Shown in pieces: positions 38,184-45,400 of a stretch of 47,623 bases of DNA (position 1 is its first letter; each line of letters opens with the position of its first letter). Below the pieces are notes generated by a model. The model saw nothing but the letters and a program-made list of their open reading frames with translations. It was not told where the DNA came from and made no database searches. This DNA comes from Escherichia phage TanjaMuster_Bas81. A program made the translations under genes and the position numbers. The stretch lies in the sequence record PQ850630.1; one strand, given 5' to 3'.

Positions 38184-40098
38184 CTGTAAAATCTTTTCTG
38201 TGGATTATGTCTCGGCCTTTATCATTAATACGATGCGTGATGCGTTTTGGCGATTTAATCAATCCAGCATACATCATGAATTGTTTTGCGTTCTGGCATT
38301 TCAGTATTTTCCCAGCCATTGACTTATCATCAAGGTGAGGAAAGATAGCCTTTGCCTTAAACATGTTTTTCATGTGAGTTGCGCCGCTATAAGGGTAGAA
38401 AACCTCGCTAGCCCATCCTTCTTTTCCGTCACAACGATTAATCCAGTAGCGATATAAAACCCCCTCTCCATCCTTCGTTAACTGAACCTTGAAATCCATA
38501 ACGTCAGCCCATTCATTATCCGTATACGCACGCTCATTCAGTGCCGCATTAGGGTCGCGCAGAACATGATCGCAATGTCGGCAATAACGCGCAGTAGGGT
38601 CATTTTTAGTCCCGCAACCATCATCAAAAATCCGTATTCCATGCTTGTCGAAACCGCAACGAATGTAGCTGAAAAATTCTTCGCATCGACCATCTGGCGA
38701 TAGTACATCTTTGCCAATGCAGCGGCGCGCATATGGGCTGTTCATTGTTCCGCATTTCGGGCACGGAACCTGTTCACCACTGCGCCTTGAACGCTGAGCC
38801 TCAGCTTCTTCCAGAATCGGGTCTTCATACAGCTGACCAAGCTCAAACATCGTGCCTGAGAAATCAAGAACCAGATGGTCTTCTTTATGATACCCAGCAT
38901 CAATTTGCTCCTTCTTCAGCAGGCGCATACCGCGACCAAGCAACTGGACAAGGAGAGTTAGCGACATTATTTTCCTGAGGATTACGCTTACATCCCATAG
39001 CGGAATGTTTACTCCGGTCGTCAGCGCGGCTATCTGGAATGTGTATTTTATTTTGCCAGTGTACGCATCCTTTAGAGCCTTACGTCTGGCTTTTTGCCCC
39101 ATATCTTCGGTGACAATAGCGTAGCTACCTTCTGGCAGATATTTAGCAGCTTCTAAACAATGCTTCTTGCCTGCGCAGGTAATTAACACTCCATTTCTAT
39201 CTTTTGTAAGCTCCATCACTTTGAGCATGATTTTCTGTGTGAGAGTACCTTGCTCAAGGATTTCTTCCTGCATCTGCTTAAGTTGTTCGGCAGTGAAGTC
39301 CTGCGTTCCGTCGATATCAGATCCACGGAATGCTGAAAGGTCGTAATGCAAATCATCAACATCATGAAGGCCAAAGATTGTTGGAACAACAAATCCGCGA
39401 TCTACCATGTACTTTGTGTCAATGTTTATTATTTCATTCTTCCAGTACGCACCTTTCATTGATTCAGTGCCACGGAATGGGCTTCCGGTGAATCCAATTG
39501 TTATCATTTCATGACCATGTTTTGCCTTGCATCTCCTGTTAAGTTCCGTAAGTATTACACCATATTGTGTTGTTGGATTCTCACTAATAATGTCCTGCCA
39601 CGGAACTTGGTGCCCTTCATCGCACAGGCAAAATCTGGGGGCAAAATCACTCAATCCACCTTTCTTAACGTCACCACTTGATTCATCTTTTTTATCAAAA
39701 AGTGCGTTAACGATTGTTCCTTCAGTTCCGCATATAATAGGGTATGCTGTACTTTTCCTGCCAAGAGATGCGCTATAAAGAGAATTTTTTACACCGCACT
39801 CCCACATCATTTCAGCATTCTGCTCTGCTATTTCCCCCTGCCTTGAAATAACAAGGCCATCCCACCCCATATCCTGAAATCTACTGCAAAGCATTGAAAT
39901 TATCACGGTCTTTCCTGATGAAACCGACGCTGTAACATAGCTTGGTTCAGGTTTCTTGCCAAAATTACGAATAACCTCAGCGCACTTTGCGTAAACAAGC
40001 CATTGGTAATCATATGGCTCTATGGAGCCTAATTTTATTGATTGCTTTAACTTCTCAATATTAATCTCTGAAATCATTTTGTCTATTTTGTTCATCAC
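38161..40098 (-). CDS. SF2 (DEAD/DEAH-box type) DNA helicase with C-terminal zinc-finger region
   Basis: Walker A-like SSGKT, DEGH motif II, helicase C-terminal motifs, multiple C-terminal Cys pairs (CPKCG, CRHCDH). Confidence 0.7.
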   Translation of the reverse strand: MMNKIDKMISEINIEKLKQSIKLGSIEPYDYQWLVYAKCAEVIRNFGKKPEPSYVTASVSSGKTVIISMLCSRFQDMGWDGLVISRQGEIAEQNAEMMWECGVKNSLYSASLGRKSTAYPIICGTEGTIVNALFDKKDESSGDVKKGGLSDFAPRFCLCDEGHQVPWQDIISENPTTQYGVILTELNRRCKAKHGHEMITIGFTGSPFRGTESMKGAYWKNEIINIDTKYMVDRGFVVPTIFGLHDVDDLHYDLSAFRGSDIDGTQDFTAEQLKQMQEEILEQGTLTQKIMLKVMELTKDRNGVLITCAGKKHCLEAAKYLPEGSYAIVTEDMGQKARRKALKDAYTGKIKYTFQIAALTTGVNIPLWDVSVILRKIMSLTLLVQLLGRGMRLLKKEQIDAGYHKEDHLVLDFSGTMFELGQLYEDPILEEAEAQRSRRSGEQVPCPKCGTMNSPYARRCIGKDVLSPDGRCEEFFSYIRCGFDKHGIRIFDDGCGTKNDPTARYCRHCDHVLRDPNAALNERAYTDNEWADVMDFKVQLTKDGEGVLYRYWINRCDGKEGWASEVFYPYSGATHMKNMFKAKAIFPHLDDKSMAGKILKCQNAKQFMMYAGLIKSPKRITHRINDKGRDIIHRKDFTGEQSEAA

Positions 40099-40670
40099 CT
40101 ACTCCTGCTAAAATCACCGTGTAATGATTTTCTATATTTCTTTATGGCGTTACCTGCTTCCTCTGCTGTATTAAAGTAACCAAGATTAAATCTCCTGCCG
40201 TTAACCGCTATCCTTGCTCTCCACTTTTTACTTTTTGCATCAAAGCCAACCCCTTTAAATCCAGATTGGTTATCAATTCTGATTTTCCTATTCATGCAGT
40301 TTTCGCTTGGTTTTGCCTCTCTTAAATTTAAGATGGCGTTATTTGATTTATCTAAGTCGATATGGTCAATCTCAAATTAAGGCCACTTCCCGTTAACATA
40401 AAACCATGCAAGTCTGTGGGCCATAAACCTGTATCCACCTATAACTATGCGTACATATCCGGTATTCTCAACATATCCAGCTCTCGGTGAGTTACTGTGA
40501 TTACCATTTCTCCACGTAAAAATTCCTGTTGATTTTTCATAATTAATTTTTGATTTAAGAAACTCATGGCTTAGCGATGACTCCTTTTGCTTTCTTCTCT
40601 CTAAATTTCTTGACTCTGCACCTGACAGAGCAGCACTTCGCCTTTGCAGTTCCGATGAACTCATTTCCAC
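40095..40670 (-). pseudogene. HNH homing endonuclease gene disrupted by in-frame TAA stop (N-terminal fragment 40377..40670, C-terminal AP2 fragment 40095..40295)
   Basis: same reading frame across TAA at 40377-40379; translation ...HRLAWFYVNGKWP*FEIDHIDLDKSNNAILNLREA...MNRKIRIDNQSGFKGV aligns with intact paralog 541..1056 ([35 protein letters not shown]). Confidence 0.6.
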
Positions 40671-40701
40671 AAACCTCGCACTTCTTTACGGTGATCGCCA
40701 T
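40564..40701 (-). CDS. small zinc-ribbon protein (45 aa)
   Basis: manual translation MAITVKKCEVCGNEFIGTAKAKCCSVRCRVKKFREKKAKGVIAKP; GAGGT RBS; overlaps out-of-frame with 5' part of HNH pseudogene. Confidence 0.35.
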   Translation of the reverse strand: MAITVKKCEVCGNEFIGTAKAKCCSVRCRVKKFREKKAKGVIAKP

Positions 40702-40808
40702 TTCATAACCTCTATTGTAACGATTAATTGTTTCATTTCAAGTAACGATTGATTGTTTCATGCGAGTAAATTACAATGATTCTACATCATCGTCAACAGG
40801 AAGATTTT

Positions 40809-41762
40809 ATGAGATACGACTGGAAAGACATTGAGCCAAAAATGCTCGGAAATTGGCAGGCCGCCATCATGTCTATCGTCAATGTGGATAGCAGAGTTTT
40901 CAATGGCAAGCACCAGCCATGCCCGTCATGCTCAGGAAAAGACAGATATCGCTTTGATGATAACTTCGAAACAAAAGGCGATGGCGGCGCAATATGCAAT
41001 CAGTGCGGGTCCGGCAGCGGCATGAACTGGCTGATGAAACTTTCAGGCATGAACTTCCCTGAAGCACTGGAGGCGCTTGGTGGATTCCTGAACATGCACC
41101 CACGCGAAAAGCTGGAGGCAATCAGGAAGGAACTACCGAAGATAAATTACAACGATGACTTCATCACCGAGCAGGAAGTAGCCGCAATCATGTCTAAAAC
41201 GACGCGTGTCGCGATGAGTGAGTGGACTTTGATAAATGGTATTGGTTGCGACGTTAGCGTCGTCAGAGGGAAATCTGGGGAGCTTATTGCGGTTGAGATG
41301 GTGCGCGCTGACACAATGAGTCCGTGCAACGTGGCATTCATTGGCATGGATGGTGATGCATTCAGAACATTCTACAAAGCAGGATATAACAAAGACTCAG
41401 CCATAAACGGCAAACTCACACGAGGCGCGATAAGCCCAATCGGAGAAGATAACGGAAAGTTCATTTATCTGGTGTCTGATTATGCCGACGCGTGGAAATG
41501 CCATTACTTCACTGGCGCGCATGTCTGGTGCTGCTGGTCGCCGGAAAATATGTGGGAAGTGGTGCGCTCGGTTAGCGGTGAGACGAAAGCAAGGTTACGC
41601 TGCATAGTTAATTATAAATTTGACGAGCTTTGCGCTGCGGAAAATGCAGGACTTCCGGTGATGCTGCCTGATGATTCCGACACAATCAGGATGGCGAAGC
41701 GAATCAGAAGAAAGATTTATGACGCTGGCGAGTTGATAGAGAAGATCTCAGTTTGCAGATAA
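40809..41762 (+). CDS. DNA primase (N-terminal zinc-ribbon plus TOPRIM-like domain)
   Basis: CPSCSGKDRYRFDD...CNQCG zinc-binding motif as in phage primase-helicases; AGGAAG RBS before ATG 40809; TACAAT -10 at 40771-40776. Confidence 0.65.
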   Translation: MRYDWKDIEPKMLGNWQAAIMSIVNVDSRVFNGKHQPCPSCSGKDRYRFDDNFETKGDGGAICNQCGSGSGMNWLMKLSGMNFPEALEALGGFLNMHPREKLEAIRKELPKINYNDDFITEQEVAAIMSKTTRVAMSEWTLINGIGCDVSVVRGKSGELIAVEMVRADTMSPCNVAFIGMDGDAFRTFYKAGYNKDSAINGKLTRGAISPIGEDNGKFIYLVSDYADAWKCHYFTGAHVWCCWSPENMWEVVRSVSGETKARLRCIVNYKFDELCAAENAGLPVMLPDDSDTIRMAKRIRRKIYDAGELIEKISVCR

Positions 41763-41861
41763 AGGAAACCATCCAGTTGGAGGGTTTTTGTTATTCATTG
41801 AACTCTGGCGCTTCAGTCCAGAAGTGCTCAGGTAAAATTTTAAGTTCGTGTGTTTTGCTCA

Positions 41862-43454
41862 TCACAACCCCCTCATAAATCTCATGCGCTTAACGGCAGC
41901 GGAAAGATAATTTCTAACCGTTGAGTTCATCCGCAGGCCATCCCATGAACCATCACTACACATCTTAATTGCTCTTGGATTATCCCTGTCCAGCATTAGT
42001 GGTGAATGTTTGTTCTCCTCAATGGCAAGAAGAACCTCATAAACAAACTTATCAGGTGTTAGTGTGATGTTATTAGAGTCAGCAGAATTGATTATCTTTT
42101 CAACTCTGTCACGGCACAGCTTGTTCTTTATAACAGACAAATAAGGCGTTTTAATGAATGCCTGTGATTCACAAATTCGCTTTATTTTTTCAACAATATT
42201 CGACCACTCAGTATTCTCAAGTCCATCAAATGCCTGTTCACCCTCAAGGAATCTTTTCAGCCCTGACAGGTGTTCAAGAACCGTGATATAACCCCACTCG
42301 ATATGCTCCATCGTCACTGATGGTGTCATTCCCTGCCGACTTGACAGATCGGTATACGCCGCCAGAGTTGCAAGATCGACAATCATTAGACCCATACGAG
42401 GGATAACATCACCAACAACACCATCGCAATCACCAAGCTCACTTTCCAGTTTCATAGACAGAGATCGGTGCAGTTTTTTAGCATTATCATCAGCCCATAC
42501 AACGTGAGTTTTCGCGGTAAGAACCCTACCTTTCCACTCATTGATTATTTTTCTTGAAAGCGTACCACTCACTTCCACATCCTTCATCGCTGGCATTTCC
42601 TCACCAGCAAGATGTCCAAGCTGGAACAGCACGCGCCCCATACCGCCATCTTTCTGCCATGAACGCGCAGCATCTATTCCCTGCTCTGGTGTGACAGTAA
42701 TCAGCGGAACAAATTTTGCGTTTTCAATTCCACCTTCTTTTGTTGCAATTTCGTACTCATTCATTGCCGACTTTAGTGCTCTCCCAACGCTGTGGTCCAT
42801 CATCGCAAGACGCTTATAATCTATGACTCCTTTCCCGTCATCTCCACCAGTAAGTGGCACTATCCATCCCTCTGCGCTTGCTGCCGCCATGATGCGTTTT
42901 GGGTTTTGTTCCCACGTAAGGTTTTCAAGCAACTCCTTTATTATTGGTCTATTAGGAACCCACACGCCGCCATCAGTTAGGGCTCTATACCACGCCATAG
43001 TGCCGCCAAGATATGCATTGCGCGGGTTGTTCCAGTCTTCAAGATGTTGCTTGTCATCGTTCACAACGTAGAGCAAAGACCCACCTCCGGCAATCAGGTC
43101 TAACTGCATCTGTTTCGTCGATGTTGATTTGGATGCGCAAACTCTGGACCCTATTCCCAGCGCATTGGCATACGCCCTGACGAAACTCACCGGTGCACCC
43201 TTACCTGCACCAGAGCGAGCCACGAGAAATATTCCAGTATTGCAGATACTACCTGTTGGACCAATCAAGTATCGTCCAGCCATCGCCTGAGCAAGACCCA
43301 ACGCGCCAGTTAAACGATATCTTCCCCCTCCCTCACGGCGCTCAAACCCCCTTGCGATCTCATCCATAAACTCACCAAGTGCCCCGGGAGCATCCCGCTT
43401 TATGCCCATAGCCAGAGACTCAAAATCAATCGAACTCATCAATACACCCTCCAT
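41862..43454 (-). CDS. putative replication protein with P-loop NTPase motif (helicase/initiator candidate)
   Basis: 530 aa; Walker A-like GIFLVARSGAGKGAP; located in replication module; family not confidently recognised. Confidence 0.35.
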   Translation of the reverse strand: MEGVLMSSIDFESLAMGIKRDAPGALGEFMDEIARGFERREGGGRYRLTGALGLAQAMAGRYLIGPTGSICNTGIFLVARSGAGKGAPVSFVRAYANALGIGSRVCASKSTSTKQMQLDLIAGGGSLLYVVNDDKQHLEDWNNPRNAYLGGTMAWYRALTDGGVWVPNRPIIKELLENLTWEQNPKRIMAAASAEGWIVPLTGGDDGKGVIDYKRLAMMDHSVGRALKSAMNEYEIATKEGGIENAKFVPLITVTPEQGIDAARSWQKDGGMGRVLFQLGHLAGEEMPAMKDVEVSGTLSRKIINEWKGRVLTAKTHVVWADDNAKKLHRSLSMKLESELGDCDGVVGDVIPRMGLMIVDLATLAAYTDLSSRQGMTPSVTMEHIEWGYITVLEHLSGLKRFLEGEQAFDGLENTEWSNIVEKIKRICESQAFIKTPYLSVIKNKLCRDRVEKIINSADSNNITLTPDKFVYEVLLAIEENKHSPLMLDRDNPRAIKMCSDGSWDGLRMNSTVRNYLSAAVKRMRFMRGL

Positions 43455-43729
43455 ACGCGCAAGAATTTACCCTGGATAACACCCTGTTTCACCGTTAACA
43501 CAGCACCCACCCTGTCAGCCTCAATTTTTAGCGCCTTCTGAAGTGACGCCATTGTCATCTGAAAACCTCGCTCTATGTCGTATGCGTAGCACCCATCTCT
43601 GCCCCCAATCAAAATTGAAGTTGAATACCCGTTCTCAAAGTAAAACTGACACCCATCAGGAGCGGTAAGATTATTTATCACGTCGTGAGCAAGCGATGTC
43701 GTAACAGGGAATATCGGCGCGCAACTCAT
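43439..43729 (-). CDS. hypothetical protein
   Basis: track ORF trimmed to ATG 43729 with GGTGAGG RBS. Confidence 0.45.
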   Translation of the reverse strand: MSCAPIFPVTTSLAHDVINNLTAPDGCQFYFENGYSTSILIGGRDGCYAYDIERGFQMTMASLQKALKIEADRVGAVLTVKQGVIQGKFLRVWRVY

Positions 43730-43736
43730 ACTCACC

Positions 43737-43967
43737 TCACCCAACTCGCTTAATGTGCAAAACTTCATCGAAATATGAGCACGTTCTGAATTTCATCCCA
43801 AAATCCTCACCAACCCTTCCGAGACACGCGCGAAATCTTTCAACAGACATCACTTTATCTGCAATATCCTCATAAGAAATCGAATTAACCTGACCAACAT
43901 CCATATGTTTTGCAACGCGATACACGAATTCCATCTTTGAACCATCACGGTACATTTTGTTTCTCAT
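43737..43967 (-). CDS. hypothetical protein
   Basis: track ORF trimmed to ATG 43967 with GGAGGTG RBS; first gene of leftward operon. Confidence 0.45.
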   Translation of the reverse strand: MRNKMYRDGSKMEFVYRVAKHMDVGQVNSISYEDIADKVMSVERFRACLGRVGEDFGMKFRTCSYFDEVLHIKRVG

Positions 43968-44132
43968 AGACACCTCCATCCGCATTCCAACAGGAACTAT
44001 AGATAAAAAATAAAATTAGCGCAACACAAAACAGGTCTAACCAGCAATAATAGCTACCACACTTAACAACTGGTCAGACCACCATCTCGTATCTGATATA
44101 TGTGGATGGTGCACGTCGTTCAATTTGTGCTC

Positions 44133-44487
44133 GATTTTTACCTAATTTACCGTATATTTATTAGTCAGTTTTTTGCATAACCAATTGATTTATATGATTT
44201 TACCTGTTTTACCGGAAATCTAATGAGTATTTTCATCATTGAGAGTAGTAGTATATTAATTGGTCTAATTTTTAAAGAACTCTAATAAAATCAATATATT
44301 AATATAAGAAAGTAACTTACTTACTTATATAGGATTTACCGGGTAAAACCGGTAACTCCTCCGCAGTCCGCGTCATTACTGGATTGATTTTTACCACCTG
44401 TAGGTAAATACAGTAGTTTTTAAGTCAGGATTGTTTTGTAAGATGTTGATTACCGGTACTTTATTTGAAAAACCGGGATTTACCGGG
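44133..44487. repeat. AT-rich region with six iteron-like repeats GAT(T)nTACC / TTTACCGG (candidate origin or operator cluster)
   Basis: copies at 44133-44142, 44196-44204, 44333-44340, 44386-44395, 44448-44454, 44477-44484; spacing roughly multiples of 10 bp. Confidence 0.5.
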
Positions 44488-44623
44488 TTTTTGTGGTGTG
44501 ATTAATAATCGCGCAATTAGCCATGTTTCACCAGAACTCACTGATGCGACACCTGAAAATCGCATTGACGTAGAATTACAACTGATGTAGATTGAACTCA
44601 TCAAAACAAACGAGGGTGAAGAG

Positions 44624-44770
44624 ATGAAAATCAAATACCGTGAAGAATTTGAAGATGCACAGGTTATGGCACGTATCGCAGTTGAGCGCACAGACAACAT
44701 CATTCCTGCCGAAGCATTCTGGAACGCAGCAATGCAGGCTTTAATCTCTGCGTATGGGTTAAGTAAATGA
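44624..44770 (+). CDS. hypothetical protein (48 aa)
   Basis: manual translation MKIKYREEFEDAQVMARIAVERTDNIIPAEAFWNAAMQALISAYGLSK; GAGGGTGA RBS; first gene of rightward operon. Confidence 0.4.
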   Translation: MKIKYREEFEDAQVMARIAVERTDNIIPAEAFWNAAMQALISAYGLSK

Positions 44771-44947
44771 CAGGCGCAAAACTCGAGCTTATCGCCAGTC
44801 TGGTTATCTTGGCATTCATCATTATCGCAGTGGCAGTTTCAAAATCAGGGTATGAGAGGTGAAATGAGCAATTGGCATAACGAACATATCATGCAGTGGT
44901 ATCGCCGTAGCATCAAGGCAATCATTAACTCTTATGAGGTTTAACAA

Positions 44948-45130
44948 ATGGCAAAGACTATCTATCGCCGCGAGAAACTGGAACCAGAACTCGGTCACGT
45001 TGGCGCGCAAAACTTTATGAGCAAGCAGGCACGTAATGCGATGGAATCTATCCGCGTGAATCGCGTTGTGCGCGTGTTTAATGGTGAAGGTAAGCGTAGG
45101 GTAATGGATGAGCTGATTATCGTATTCTGA
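44948..45130 (+). CDS. hypothetical protein
   Basis: 60-aa track ORF, GAGGT RBS. Confidence 0.45.
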   Translation: MAKTIYRREKLEPELGHVGAQNFMSKQARNAMESIRVNRVVRVFNGEGKRRVMDELIIVF

Positions 45131-45166
45131 ACTCGATTCAGCGATCTTATTTCTAATGGTGATGAT

Positions 45167-45400
45167 ATGGCAAAAGTAAAAACATACGAGTTCTGGTTTG
45201 TTCAGAACAAAATGTATGCAAGCAGGACAATCAGGCGAGTCAGCTGGTGGAATAAGTGGTTAATCATGTCTGGCTGCATTGTGCTGGCAAAGTGCAAATT
45301 CAAAGCGATTGACATCACAGATGAGGATGCGCTCAAAATCGCAAAGATTGAGTTTGAAGAAGATGGCTATTACGAAGAAATTATGGGGGTTAGGGTATGA
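45167..45400 (+). CDS. hypothetical protein
   Basis: 77-aa track ORF, GGTGA RBS. Confidence 0.5.
   Translation: MAKVKTYEFWFVQNKMYASRTIRRVSWWNKWLIMSGCIVLAKCKFKAIDITDEDALKIAKIEFEEDGYYEEIMGVRV

What the first reader, a model, noticed from the sequence alone, without database searches (positions are those of the whole stretch)
44100..44600. AT-rich divergent control region with six iteron-like repeats: candidate replication origin or operator array
Between the leftward replication operon (first gene at 43967) and the rightward early operon (first gene at 44624) lies about 650 bp with no ORF, very AT-rich, containing GAT(T)nTACC / TTTACCGG units at 44133, 44196, 44333, 44386, 44448 and 44477, spaced at roughly helical-turn multiples. 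A palindromic cluster TTTACCGGGTAAAACCGGTAA sits at 44335-44355, and two inverted copies of the 11-bp motif at 44566-44593. The position next to primase/helicase genes and the iteron architecture fit an origin with an adjacent DNA unwinding element, or a multi-operator site for an early regulator.
Basis: inference. Interest (0 to 1): 0.6.

Follow-up and report, generated by a model that had tools for sequence, protein, structure and literature searches.

The report
Candidate phage replication origin with iterons
The repeat-filled, AT-rich gap between two opposed early operons is most likely this phage's replication origin: eleven short repeats that match the neighbouring MCM-like helicase flank the easiest-to-melt DNA in the genome, a known design (staphylococcal islands) not yet described for this phage group.

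Summary
There are 11 copies, not 6, of a (A/T)TTTACCGG unit within 44137-44484, against 0.8 expected. They form a left array (4 copies, all + strand) and a right array (7 copies, 3 on the - strand). Between them lies the least stable duplex of the whole 47.6-kb genome (44238-44337).

The window is a Skatevirus-cluster siphophage. At the same position, relatives carry other repeats: AGTTACCGG, GAGTTCCC, GCCCCACG, TTATCCC and (A/G)TGCCC. Each repeat type goes with one allele of the adjacent ~500-aa protein, across more than 30 genomes and contigs. It does not go with the primase or with the small first gene.

The window's copy of that protein (41862-43439) models as an MCM-like AAA+ ATPase with a C-terminal winged helix. 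It belongs structurally to the DUF3987 helicase family. Its winged-helix region, not its ATPase region, follows repeat similarity.

The layout matches the origin and Rep helicase of staphylococcal pathogenicity islands (SaPIs). The operator reading is disfavoured because the repeats overlap neither candidate promoter. The "inverted 11-bp motif" at 44566-44593 is a direct repeat inside a conserved promoter.

Origin function and DNA binding are inferred, not shown. I class this as a new member of a known kind.

The parts
44137..44151 (+). Left array, doublet 1: two iterons (TTTACC at 44137-44142 and 44146-44151) 9 bp apart, pointing towards the AT core
   Evidence: conserved in 4 relatives
44199..44215 (+). 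Left array, doublet 2: two iterons (TTTACC at 44199-44204, TTTACCGG at 44208-44215) 9 bp apart, 62 bp from doublet 1
44238..44337 (.). AT-rich core, the candidate DNA unwinding element; its core 44271-44330 is 85% AT
   Evidence: Least stable duplex of the whole window at 60, 100 and 200 bp (-59.1 kcal/mol per 60 bp; genome mean -82.9, sd 5.0). A matching 85-90% AT core lies between the repeat arrays in all relatives examined.
44335..44355 (.). Right array, palindromic cluster: one + iteron (44335-44342) and two - iterons (cores at 44342-44346 and 44351-44355, 9 bp apart) pointing back towards the AT core
   Evidence: invariant in relatives except one base in ZCEC08 that breaks the hairpin but keeps TTTACC
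44356..44385 (.). Conserved GC-richer spacer, CTCCTCCGCAGTCCGCGTCATTACTGG; role unknown
   Evidence: a similar block sits at the same place in the L017 contig
44390..44408 (.). Right array: inverted iteron pair TTTACC-N7-GGTAAA
44448..44458 (+). Right array: iteron GATTACCGGTA, with a palindromic TACCGGTA core
44477..44488 (+). Right array: iteron GATTTACCGGGT, inside an imperfect hairpin-capable stretch 44468-44492
43996..44024 (-). Candidate leftward promoter TTGCGC-17-TATAGT for the helicase operon (inference only)
   Evidence: Best minus-strand match in my relaxed scan. I found promoter-like sites by eye at the same place next to the gene start in relatives' sequences.
44565..44593 (+). 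Rightward early promoter TTGACG-17-TAGATT.
   Evidence: conserved in about 150 phages of all repeat types
41862..43439 (-). MCM-like AAA+ helicase of the DUF3987 structural family (525 aa from Met6): Walker A RSGAGKG, C-terminal winged helix at about residues 439-500 of the 530-aa ORF. Proposed iteron-binding initiator-helicase.
   Evidence: tracks repeat type and does so by domain
43439..43729 (-). 96-aa protein, one of two paralogous small partners of the helicase; function unknown; the alternative candidate iteron binder in this lineage
   Evidence: no family hit; structure prediction failed
43737..43967 (-). 76-aa first gene of the leftward operon, a paralogue of the 96-aa protein; does not track the repeats
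   Evidence: Only 30% identical in Bas80 and Bas77, which have the same repeats. Its counterpart is deleted in a viable seszw mutant.
40776..41762 (+). DnaG-type primase (zinc ribbon plus Toprim), a probable replisome partner; not the specificity determinant
   Evidence: 91-95% identical across phages with different repeats

Best explanation
The gap 44130-44490 is the phage's replication origin, of the 'iterons plus self-loading initiator-helicase' type.

Proposed mechanism:
1. Eleven (A/T)TTTACCGG iterons form two arrays. Copies within an array are often about one helical turn (9 bp) apart.
2. The left array points right. The three minus-strand copies of the right array, two of them in the cluster that abuts the core, point left. 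The arrays therefore converge on a roughly 100-bp AT-rich element that melts most easily.
3. The MCM-like (DUF3987-type) helicase encoded two genes to the left (41862-43439) is proposed to recognise the iterons through its C-terminal winged helix. It would assemble on both sides of the AT core, open it and load itself.
4. The DnaG-type primase (40776-41762) then primes synthesis.
5. Divergent early transcription from the flanking promoters would add negative supercoiling that helps opening.

What is shown here: the repeats, their architecture, their conservation, the fold of the protein, and the co-variation of repeat and protein. What is inferred: binding, melting and origin firing.
For: 1. 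The cluster is far above chance and conserved above background.

2. The AT core between the arrays is the least stable duplex in the genome, about 4.8 sd from the mean.

3. Six repeat types occupy the same syntenic gap in related phages, all with two arrays around an 85-90% AT core:
- TTTACCGG
- AGTTACCGG
- GAGTTCCC
- GCCCCACG
- TTATCCC
- (A/G)TGCCC

4. Repeat type matches the allele of the ~500-aa protein in every case examined. Ten further viral contigs agree.

5. Controls that do not track the repeats:
- The primase is 91-95% identical across repeat types.
- The first small gene is 30% identical in Bas80, which has the same repeats.
- In IME207 and DS8 that gene is replaced by an AP2-domain protein, again with the same repeats.
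- In a viable genome-reduced seszw mutant the small gene is deleted, while the helicase and the gap are intact (PMC9825161).

6. Domain-level signal. The window's AAA+ domain is closer to the GAGTTCCC group (60% against 46%). Its winged helix is closer to the AGTTACCGG group, which shares the TTACCGG core (61% against 44%). The heterogeneity test gives p = 0.0015.

7. Fold of the protein:
- AF2 model with mean pLDDT 89.
- Viral DUF3987 proteins match at Foldseek E 1e-19 to 1e-6.
- The allelic proteins of other repeat types hit Pfam DUF3987 at E about 1e-35.

8. Literature. DUF3987 proteins are described as MCM-related phage helicases with a C-terminal winged helix (PMC4889955), and one has been shown to be a helicase (PMC11724360). 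SaPI origins have 6-12 penta- or hexanucleotide iterons. These are split around a central AT-rich region, with opposed orientation, and are read by the Rep winged helix (PMC9371898).
Against: There is no experimental evidence of binding or origin activity for any phage of this cluster.

The iterons and the helicase gene are physically linked, so co-inheritance within one mosaic cassette could produce the association without any interaction. Only the controls above and the domain-level signal argue beyond linkage, and the domain signal rests on few residues.

The 96-aa protein also tracks the repeats within this lineage, so it is not excluded as the binder.

The origin lies upstream of the operon, two genes away from the helicase, not immediately downstream as in SaPIs.

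The window's protein alone is below the Pfam DUF3987 cut-off (13.6 bits against 27).

GC skew turns near 44000, but it follows gene orientation everywhere, so it is uninformative.

Four of the seven right-array copies point away from the core.
Confidence: 0.65

Rival explanations
1. The region is the origin, but the iterons are read by the small partner protein(s), in particular the 96-aa product of 43439-43729. These would act as a separate origin-binding initiator or loader that recruits the MCM-like helicase.
For: A small protein of this family sits directly upstream of the helicase in nearly all relatives. The 96-aa paralogue is 93-96% identical in all phages with TTTACC repeats. The small proteins also diverge between the AGTTACCGG and GAGTTCCC groups.
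Against: - In the GCCCCACG group the small protein is swapped (72 aa against a 90-aa AP2-domain protein) with no change of repeats or helicase.
- In seszw the small gene is deleted in a viable mutant.
- The 76-aa paralogue is only 30% identical in Bas80 despite identical repeats.
- No DNA-binding family or fold was detected. The model was unusable at pLDDT 43.
Confidence: 0.13
2. The repeats are an operator or regulatory array that controls the two divergent early promoters, for example autoregulation by the helicase or another early protein, with no origin function.
For: The repeats lie between two divergent promoters. Many initiators also autoregulate. The left array begins about 110 bp from the candidate leftward promoter.
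Against: - No repeat overlaps either candidate core promoter. The nearest copies are about 80 bp upstream of the rightward -35 and about 110 bp upstream of the leftward -35.
- The rightward promoter is nearly invariant in about 150 phages whose repeats differ.
- No helix-turn-helix regulator was found in the cassette.
- An operator array does not explain two converging arrays around the genome's weakest duplex, repeated in six repeat types.
Confidence: 0.12
3. The conserved inverted copies encode a structured RNA or transcription terminators rather than protein-binding DNA sites.
For: Several hairpins can form: 44335-44355, 44390-44408 and 44468-44492 (A-run, stem, T-run). The fold z-scores are -2.3 and -1.9. 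A CUCCUCC stretch could pair with a ribosome-binding site.
Against: - No Rfam match.
- The covariation term is -0.25 kcal/mol, with a single compensatory pair.
- ZCEC08 breaks a stem pair but keeps TTTACC.
- The terminator scan found none.
- The left-array copies are direct repeats, not inverted.
- RNA structure does not explain why the motif changes with the helicase allele.
Confidence: 0.04
4. The repeats bind a host factor such as DnaA, or serve in packaging, or are chance low-complexity sequence in AT-rich DNA.
For: Some phage origins use host initiators. Several public records of relatives are opened in this gap.
Against: - DnaA boxes are not enriched (54 against 50.9 expected).
- The motif differs among phages of the same hosts and follows a phage protein.
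- The terminal duplication in INT55 runs into a gene and looks like an assembly overlap.
- The terminase genes are about 3 kb away.
- Chance is excluded.
Confidence: 0.04

Closest known systems
SaPI (Staphylococcus aureus pathogenicity island) replication origin with its Rep initiator-helicase
   Same: - 6-12 short (5-6 nt) iterons, split into two sets around a central AT-rich region.
- At least two iterons on each side in opposed orientation.
- A cognate AAA+ helicase of the MCM-related (pre-sensor II insert) clade with a C-terminal winged helix that sets iteron specificity.
- A primase encoded nearby.
- Many specificity types among related elements.
(PMC9371898; here.)
   Different: - The host element here is a virulent Gram-negative siphophage, not an island.
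- The origin lies upstream of the operon, between divergent promoters and two small genes away from the helicase, not directly downstream of rep.
- The one DUF3987 helicase that has been tested unwinds 5'-3' (PMC11724360), whereas Reps unwind 3'-5'.
DUF3987 (PF13148) phage and mobile-element helicases, classed as MCM-related superfamily 6
   Same: MCM-like AAA+ core, C-terminal winged helix, and pairing with a primase gene (PMC4889955). The allelic proteins of relatives hit PF13148 at E about 1e-35. The window's model matches viral DUF3987 proteins.
   Different: The window's protein alone is below the Pfam cut-off, and its own subfamily is rare: 51 representatives among 1.84 billion proteins. 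I found no paper in the searched library that assigns iterons or origin recognition to this family.
Satellite phage P4 alpha protein with ori and crr (from my own knowledge, not checked here)
   Same: Short octamer iterons in both orientations are bound by the C-terminal domain of a primase-helicase. Initiator and helicase are combined in one protein.
   Different: P4 alpha is an SF3 helicase fused to a primase. Its origin is bipartite, with ori and crr kilobases apart. No sequence or fold match to it appeared in my searches.
Lambda-type origin (O protein iterons plus an AT-rich region; from my own knowledge)
   Same: Iterons lie next to an AT-rich unwinding element. Initiator-origin cassettes are exchanged among relatives. 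Nearby transcription activates the origin.
   Different: The lambda origin lies inside the initiator gene, uses 19-bp iterons, and needs a separate loader (P) and the host DnaB helicase. Here the repeats are 6-9 bp, lie between genes, and the phage carries its own helicase.

Membership tests
SaPI-type iteron origin (Rep-ori) | Six to twelve copies of a short (penta- to hexanucleotide) repeat | tested here: met
   11 copies of the TTACC/TTTACC core in 44137-44484
SaPI-type iteron origin (Rep-ori) | Iterons split into two sets around a central AT-rich region | tested here: met
   4 copies to the left and 7 to the right of 44238-44337, which is the genome's least stable duplex
SaPI-type iteron origin (Rep-ori) | At least two iterons on each side pointing in opposite directions | tested here: met
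   All four left copies are +. The right set has - copies at 44342, 44351 and 44403. The pattern is cleaner in the GAGTTCCC relatives, where every right-array copy is -.
SaPI-type iteron origin (Rep-ori) | Origin immediately downstream of the rep gene | tested here: not met
   The repeats lie upstream of the operon, separated from the helicase gene by the 96-aa and 76-aa genes
SaPI-type iteron origin (Rep-ori) | Cognate AAA+ MCM-clade helicase with a C-terminal winged helix that determines iteron specificity | tested here: inconclusive
   The fold criterion is met. Co-variation of repeat with allele and with the winged-helix region is observed. Binding was not tested.
SaPI-type iteron origin (Rep-ori) | Sequence membership in the SaPI Rep protein family | tested here: not met
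SaPI-type iteron origin (Rep-ori) | Supports initiator-dependent replication, and the initiator melts the AT region | not testable with these tools
   Needs a plasmid origin assay, marker-frequency analysis and KMnO4 footprinting
DUF3987 (PF13148) helicase family | Score above the Pfam gathering cut-off | tested here: not met
   The window's protein scores 13.6 bits against a cut-off of 27 (E = 0.039). 8 of 22 remote homologues match the family, best E 2.6e-10. Allelic proteins of Bas78 and SB28 score 121 bits.
DUF3987 (PF13148) helicase family | MCM-like AAA+ fold with a C-terminal winged helix, like annotated family members | tested here: met
Operator array at divergent promoters | Sites overlap or abut the core promoter elements they control | tested here: not met
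   The nearest repeats are about 80 bp and about 110 bp from the -35 elements of the candidate promoters. The promoters themselves are predictions.
Operator array at divergent promoters | A cognate sequence-specific transcription regulator is encoded nearby | tested here: not met
   No helix-turn-helix or other regulator family in the flanking genes
DnaA-dependent origin | Cluster of DnaA boxes (TTATNCACA) | tested here: not met
   54 matches with up to one mismatch in the genome against 50.9 expected; only two one-mismatch matches in the gap

The most novel reading that the evidence does not exclude
DUF3987/MCM-like helicases of virulent enterobacterial siphophages are self-loading, sequence-specific origin recognisers, a bacterial-virus counterpart of SV40 T-antigen, papillomavirus E1 and SaPI Rep. 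Closely related phages swap helicase-plus-iteron cassettes of at least six specificities. The natural pairs (TTTACCGG, AGTTACCGG, GAGTTCCC and the others) would give a readable winged-helix recognition code. They would also suggest diversifying selection on replication specificity, for example to escape satellites, defence systems or competitors in mixed infections.
Probability: 0.5. Interest if true: 0.65.

Novelty: new member of a known kind. Interest (0 to 1): 0.5.

Why it matters
Nothing in the literature I could search says how phages of the Skatevirus cluster start replication. These are common Salmonella and E. coli phages used in biocontrol, in the BASEL collection and in genome-reduction work.

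If the reading is right, it would:
- locate their origin;
- assign an initiator role to a widespread but poorly characterised helicase family (DUF3987);
- provide at least six natural helicase-iteron pairs for studying how a winged helix reads DNA.

It would also tell phage engineers which roughly 400 bp must not be deleted, and which helicase and origin must be moved together.

Tried and rejected
- **GC skew.** The cumulative skew turns near 44000, but it follows gene orientation throughout, including the lone + strand primase. It cannot separate replication from transcription.
- **Structured RNA.** No Rfam match, modest z-scores and no covariation.
- **DnaA boxes.** Not enriched.
- **Physical genome ends in this gap.** The INT55 record repeats about 307 bp at both ends, but the repeat runs into a gene, so it looks like an assembly overlap. 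Akira is simply opened there.
- **Sequence search of the helicase against solved structures.** Nothing significant.
- **Pfam on the window's helicase alone.** Nothing at E < 0.01.
- **Structure of the 96-aa protein.** Only close homologues exist, and the model was unusable at pLDDT 43.
- **Second AT-rich region at 40300-40775.** It is mostly ORF-covered and holds no iteron array, only one 20-nt tandem pair.
- **Primase as the binder.** Rejected, because it is 91-95% identical across repeat types.

Full report
**What the window is.** The 47,623-bp window is a complete siphophage genome opened at a 146-aa ORF that starts at base 1. Its closest relatives are the E. coli phages ASO78B, ZCEC08, Bas80 and Bas77. 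The BASEL paper places Bas77-81 in the Skatevirus cluster (PMC11990801).

The finding lies in the gap between two operons.
- The leftward operon carries a 76-aa gene (43737-43967), a 96-aa gene (43439-43729) and a 525-aa P-loop protein (41862-43439).
- The rightward operon consists of small early genes and starts at 44624.

**Checking the observation.** A core search finds 11 TTACC copies in 44138-44484:
- two plus-strand doublets with 9-bp spacing, at 44138/44147 and 44200/44209;
- a cluster at 44336(+), 44342(-) and 44351(-);
- an inverted pair at 44391(+) and 44403(-);
- single copies at 44450(+) and 44480(+).

The consensus is (A/T)TTTACCGG.

The cluster is far above chance. TTTACC occurs 37 times in the genome against 17.3 expected, and 9 of those fall here. 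TTACC occurs 11 times in 361 bp against 0.79 expected (Poisson 9e-10). No other window of that size holds more than 5, and 5000 Markov simulations of the region reach at most 7.

The copies are also conserved. Against Bas80, whose gap is 81.5% identical over the aligned part, 54 of 55 core positions are identical, while only 75.6% of the other intergenic positions are (p = 4e-6). Where the Bas80 sequence next to the leftward gene is unrelated, the first doublet is still present.

One sub-claim is wrong. The '11-bp motif' at 44566-44593 is a direct repeat, TGACGTAGAAT / TGATGTAGATT, not an inverted one. It is unrelated to TTTACC and lies on the -35 and -10 elements of TTGACG-17-TAGATT.

**Anatomy.** Between the left array (44137-44215) and the right array (44335-44486) lies an AT-rich core. 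Nearest-neighbour stability shows that 44271-44330, 44238-44337 and 44138-44337 are the least stable 60-, 100- and 200-bp stretches of the whole genome. The 60-bp value is -59.1 kcal/mol, against a genome mean of -82.9 (sd 5.0).

The rightward promoter at 44565-44593 is conserved in about 150 phages. The best leftward candidate is TTGCGC-17-TATAGT at 44024 to 43996. By eye, relatives have similar sites next to their gene starts (sequences). None of the repeats overlaps either promoter.

**Comparative evidence.** The repeat-bearing part of the gap is shared only with the four close relatives. The last 60 bp are shared with about 150 phages. Other members of the cluster have different repeats at the same place:
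- GCCCCACG in Bas78, Vi II-E1, IME207 and DS8 (the Vi II-E1 record already annotates two 25-nt copies);
- TTATCC(C) in Segz_1, INT55 and seszw;
- (A/G)TGCCC in SB28.

Each has two arrays around an 85-90% AT core. The repeat type matches the allele of the ~500-aa protein: more than 93% identity within a type, and none to 23% between the window's type and the others.

Metagenomic and IMG/VR contigs that encode 47-58% identical homologues of the window's protein extend the pattern.
- The 51-52% and 47% identical homologues have 11-16 copies of AGTTACC(GG).
- The 55-64% identical homologues have 7-12 copies of (G)AGTTCCC.
- This holds without exception in 17 loci.
- In the GAGTTCCC group the geometry is cleanest: the left array is mostly + and the right array is entirely -, so both converge on the AT core.

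**Which protein reads the repeats?**

The primase does not. It is 91-95% identical across phages with TTTACCGG, AGTTACCGG and GCCCCACG repeats.

The first small gene does not.
- It is only 30% identical in Bas80 and Bas77, which have the window's repeats.
- In IME207 and DS8 it is replaced by an AP2-domain protein while the repeats and the helicase are unchanged.
- In the published genome-reduced seszw phages (PMC9825161), all listed mutants keep the helicase and the gap intact.
- Mutant seszw_290S has an internal 182-bp deletion of the small gene and has also lost the two genes downstream of the helicase, yet it is viable. MZ375351 shows the same 92% coverage in two pieces but I did not inspect it.

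The window's two small genes are paralogues of that family. The 96-aa one cannot be excluded for this lineage.

Within the helicase the signal is domain-specific. The AAA+ region of the window's protein is closer to the GAGTTCCC group (60% and 58%) than to the AGTTACCGG group (46% and 43%). The winged-helix region 439-500 shows the reverse: 61% and 52% against 44% and 40%. That follows the shared TTACCGG core. The Woolf test for heterogeneity gives p = 0.0015. The sample is small and the two groups are only two lineages, so this is suggestive rather than conclusive.

**What the protein is.**
- It has no Pfam hit at E < 0.01 and a partial match to a PHROG 'DNA primase' family.
- Its subfamily is rare: 51 representatives among 1.84 billion proteins.
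- Longer remote relatives are fusions of a primase-polymerase domain with DUF3987.
- 8 of 22 aligned homologues hit DUF3987. The window's protein does so only weakly (E = 0.039).
- The allelic proteins of Bas78 and SB28 hit DUF3987 at about 1e-35.
- The AlphaFold model is confident (mean pLDDT 89, pTM 0.78).
- Foldseek's top PDB hits are almost all MCMs.
- Viral DUF3987 proteins and the Salmonella phage LPSTLL 'replicative DNA helicase' match over the full length.

Kazlauskas et al. describe DUF3987 proteins as MCM-related phage helicases with a C-terminal winged helix, encoded beside a primase (PMC4889955). One such protein has been shown to be an ATP-dependent 5'-3' helicase (PMC11724360).

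**Mechanism proposed.** The layout reproduces what is described for SaPI origins (PMC9371898):
- 6-12 penta- or hexanucleotide iterons;
- half on each side of a central AT-rich region;
- at least two per side in opposed orientation;
- iterons read by the winged helix of a self-loading helicase of the MCM-related AAA+ clade.

I therefore propose that the helicase binds the two arrays, opens the AT core and loads itself, and that the DnaG-type primase then primes synthesis. The flanking divergent promoters probably help opening through negative supercoiling; this last point is inference from the twin-domain model.

What is shown: the repeats, their architecture, their conservation, the fold of the protein, and the co-variation. 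What is inferred: binding, melting and firing.

**Rivals.**
- A separate small initiator protein is possible in this lineage, but it is contradicted in two sister lineages.
- A pure operator array is disfavoured by the position of the repeats and by the invariance of the rightward promoter.
- RNA structure has no support: no Rfam match, no covariation, and a stem-breaking change in ZCEC08 that preserves TTTACC.
- DnaA boxes are not enriched.
- Packaging is unlikely.
- GC skew is uninformative.

**Novelty.** Iteron origins with cognate initiator-helicases are a known kind (SaPI Rep; also P4 alpha and viral SF3 initiators, from my own knowledge). I found nothing in the searched literature that assigns an origin to Skatevirus-cluster phages or iteron recognition to DUF3987 helicases. 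The library is incomplete, so this is absence of evidence only. I class the finding as a new member of a known kind. Its added interest is a set of at least six exchangeable helicase-iteron specificities among otherwise closely related phages.

Noticed in passing
window 44565-44623: The rightward early promoter and leader (TTGACG-17-TAGATT plus the ribosome-binding site) are 88-97% identical in about 150 Salmonella, E. coli, Shigella and Klebsiella phages whose neighbouring sequence is unrelated. The promoter contains a direct repeat, TGA(C/T)GTAGA(A/T)T, over the -35 and -10 elements. This could be a shared regulator site. In contigs L019 and L020 only the first copy survives.
   Followed up: partly
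window 44356-44385: A GC-richer block, CTCCTCCGCAGTCCGCGTCATTACTGG, directly after the palindromic iteron cluster is conserved in the four close relatives. A similar block (CTTCTCTGCAACCCGCACCACGCCTGG) sits at the same position in contig L017, whose helicase is only 47% identical. It holds no iteron, and the CUCCUCC stretch resembles an anti-Shine-Dalgarno sequence. Unexplained.
   Followed up: partly
window 43439-43967; loci L014, L015, L017, L019, L020 upstream of the helicase: The 76-aa and 96-aa genes are paralogues of one small-protein family (N-terminal GSK(L/M)xFVY, C-terminal (F/L)x(V/I)(W/K)R(V/I)). A member sits just upstream of the MCM-like helicase in nearly all relatives. The family has no Pfam match, and it is deleted in a viable genome-reduced seszw mutant. 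It may be an accessory factor of the helicase.
   Followed up: partly
window 40717-40761: A tandem 20-nt direct repeat, GTAACGATT(A/G)ATTGTTTCAT, with 25-bp spacing, lies just upstream of the primase start at 40776. It may be a promoter or operator of the lone plus-strand primase gene.
   Followed up: no
window 40095-40295 and locus L012 2822-3094: Free-standing AP2-domain ORFs: 66 aa next to the SNF2-like helicase in the window, and 90 aa replacing the small helicase partner in IME207 and DS8. They resemble the DNA-binding modules of HNH homing endonucleases and may be remnants of homing elements in the replication module.
   Followed up: no
window 41762-41862, compared with locus L001 4047-4463: ZCEC08, Bas80, Bas77 and ASO78B carry a 138-aa gene between the primase and the helicase; in Bas80 and Bas77 it is annotated 'RNA-binding protein'. 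The window lacks it. In contig L015 a DUF3850 protein occupies that place. The equivalent genes are deleted in a viable seszw mutant.
   Followed up: partly
loci L007 and L008 (INT55, OP745620): This public record repeats about 307 bp at both ends, starting inside the first rightward early gene. It is probably an untrimmed circular-assembly overlap rather than a terminal repeat.
   Followed up: yes
window 44624-45200 (early small ORFs): In one relative (ST1UNAM, OQ469755) a gene under the match to this stretch is annotated 'anticodon nuclease activator family protein'. This hints that some of the small early genes are anti-defence or defence-triggering factors.
   Followed up: no
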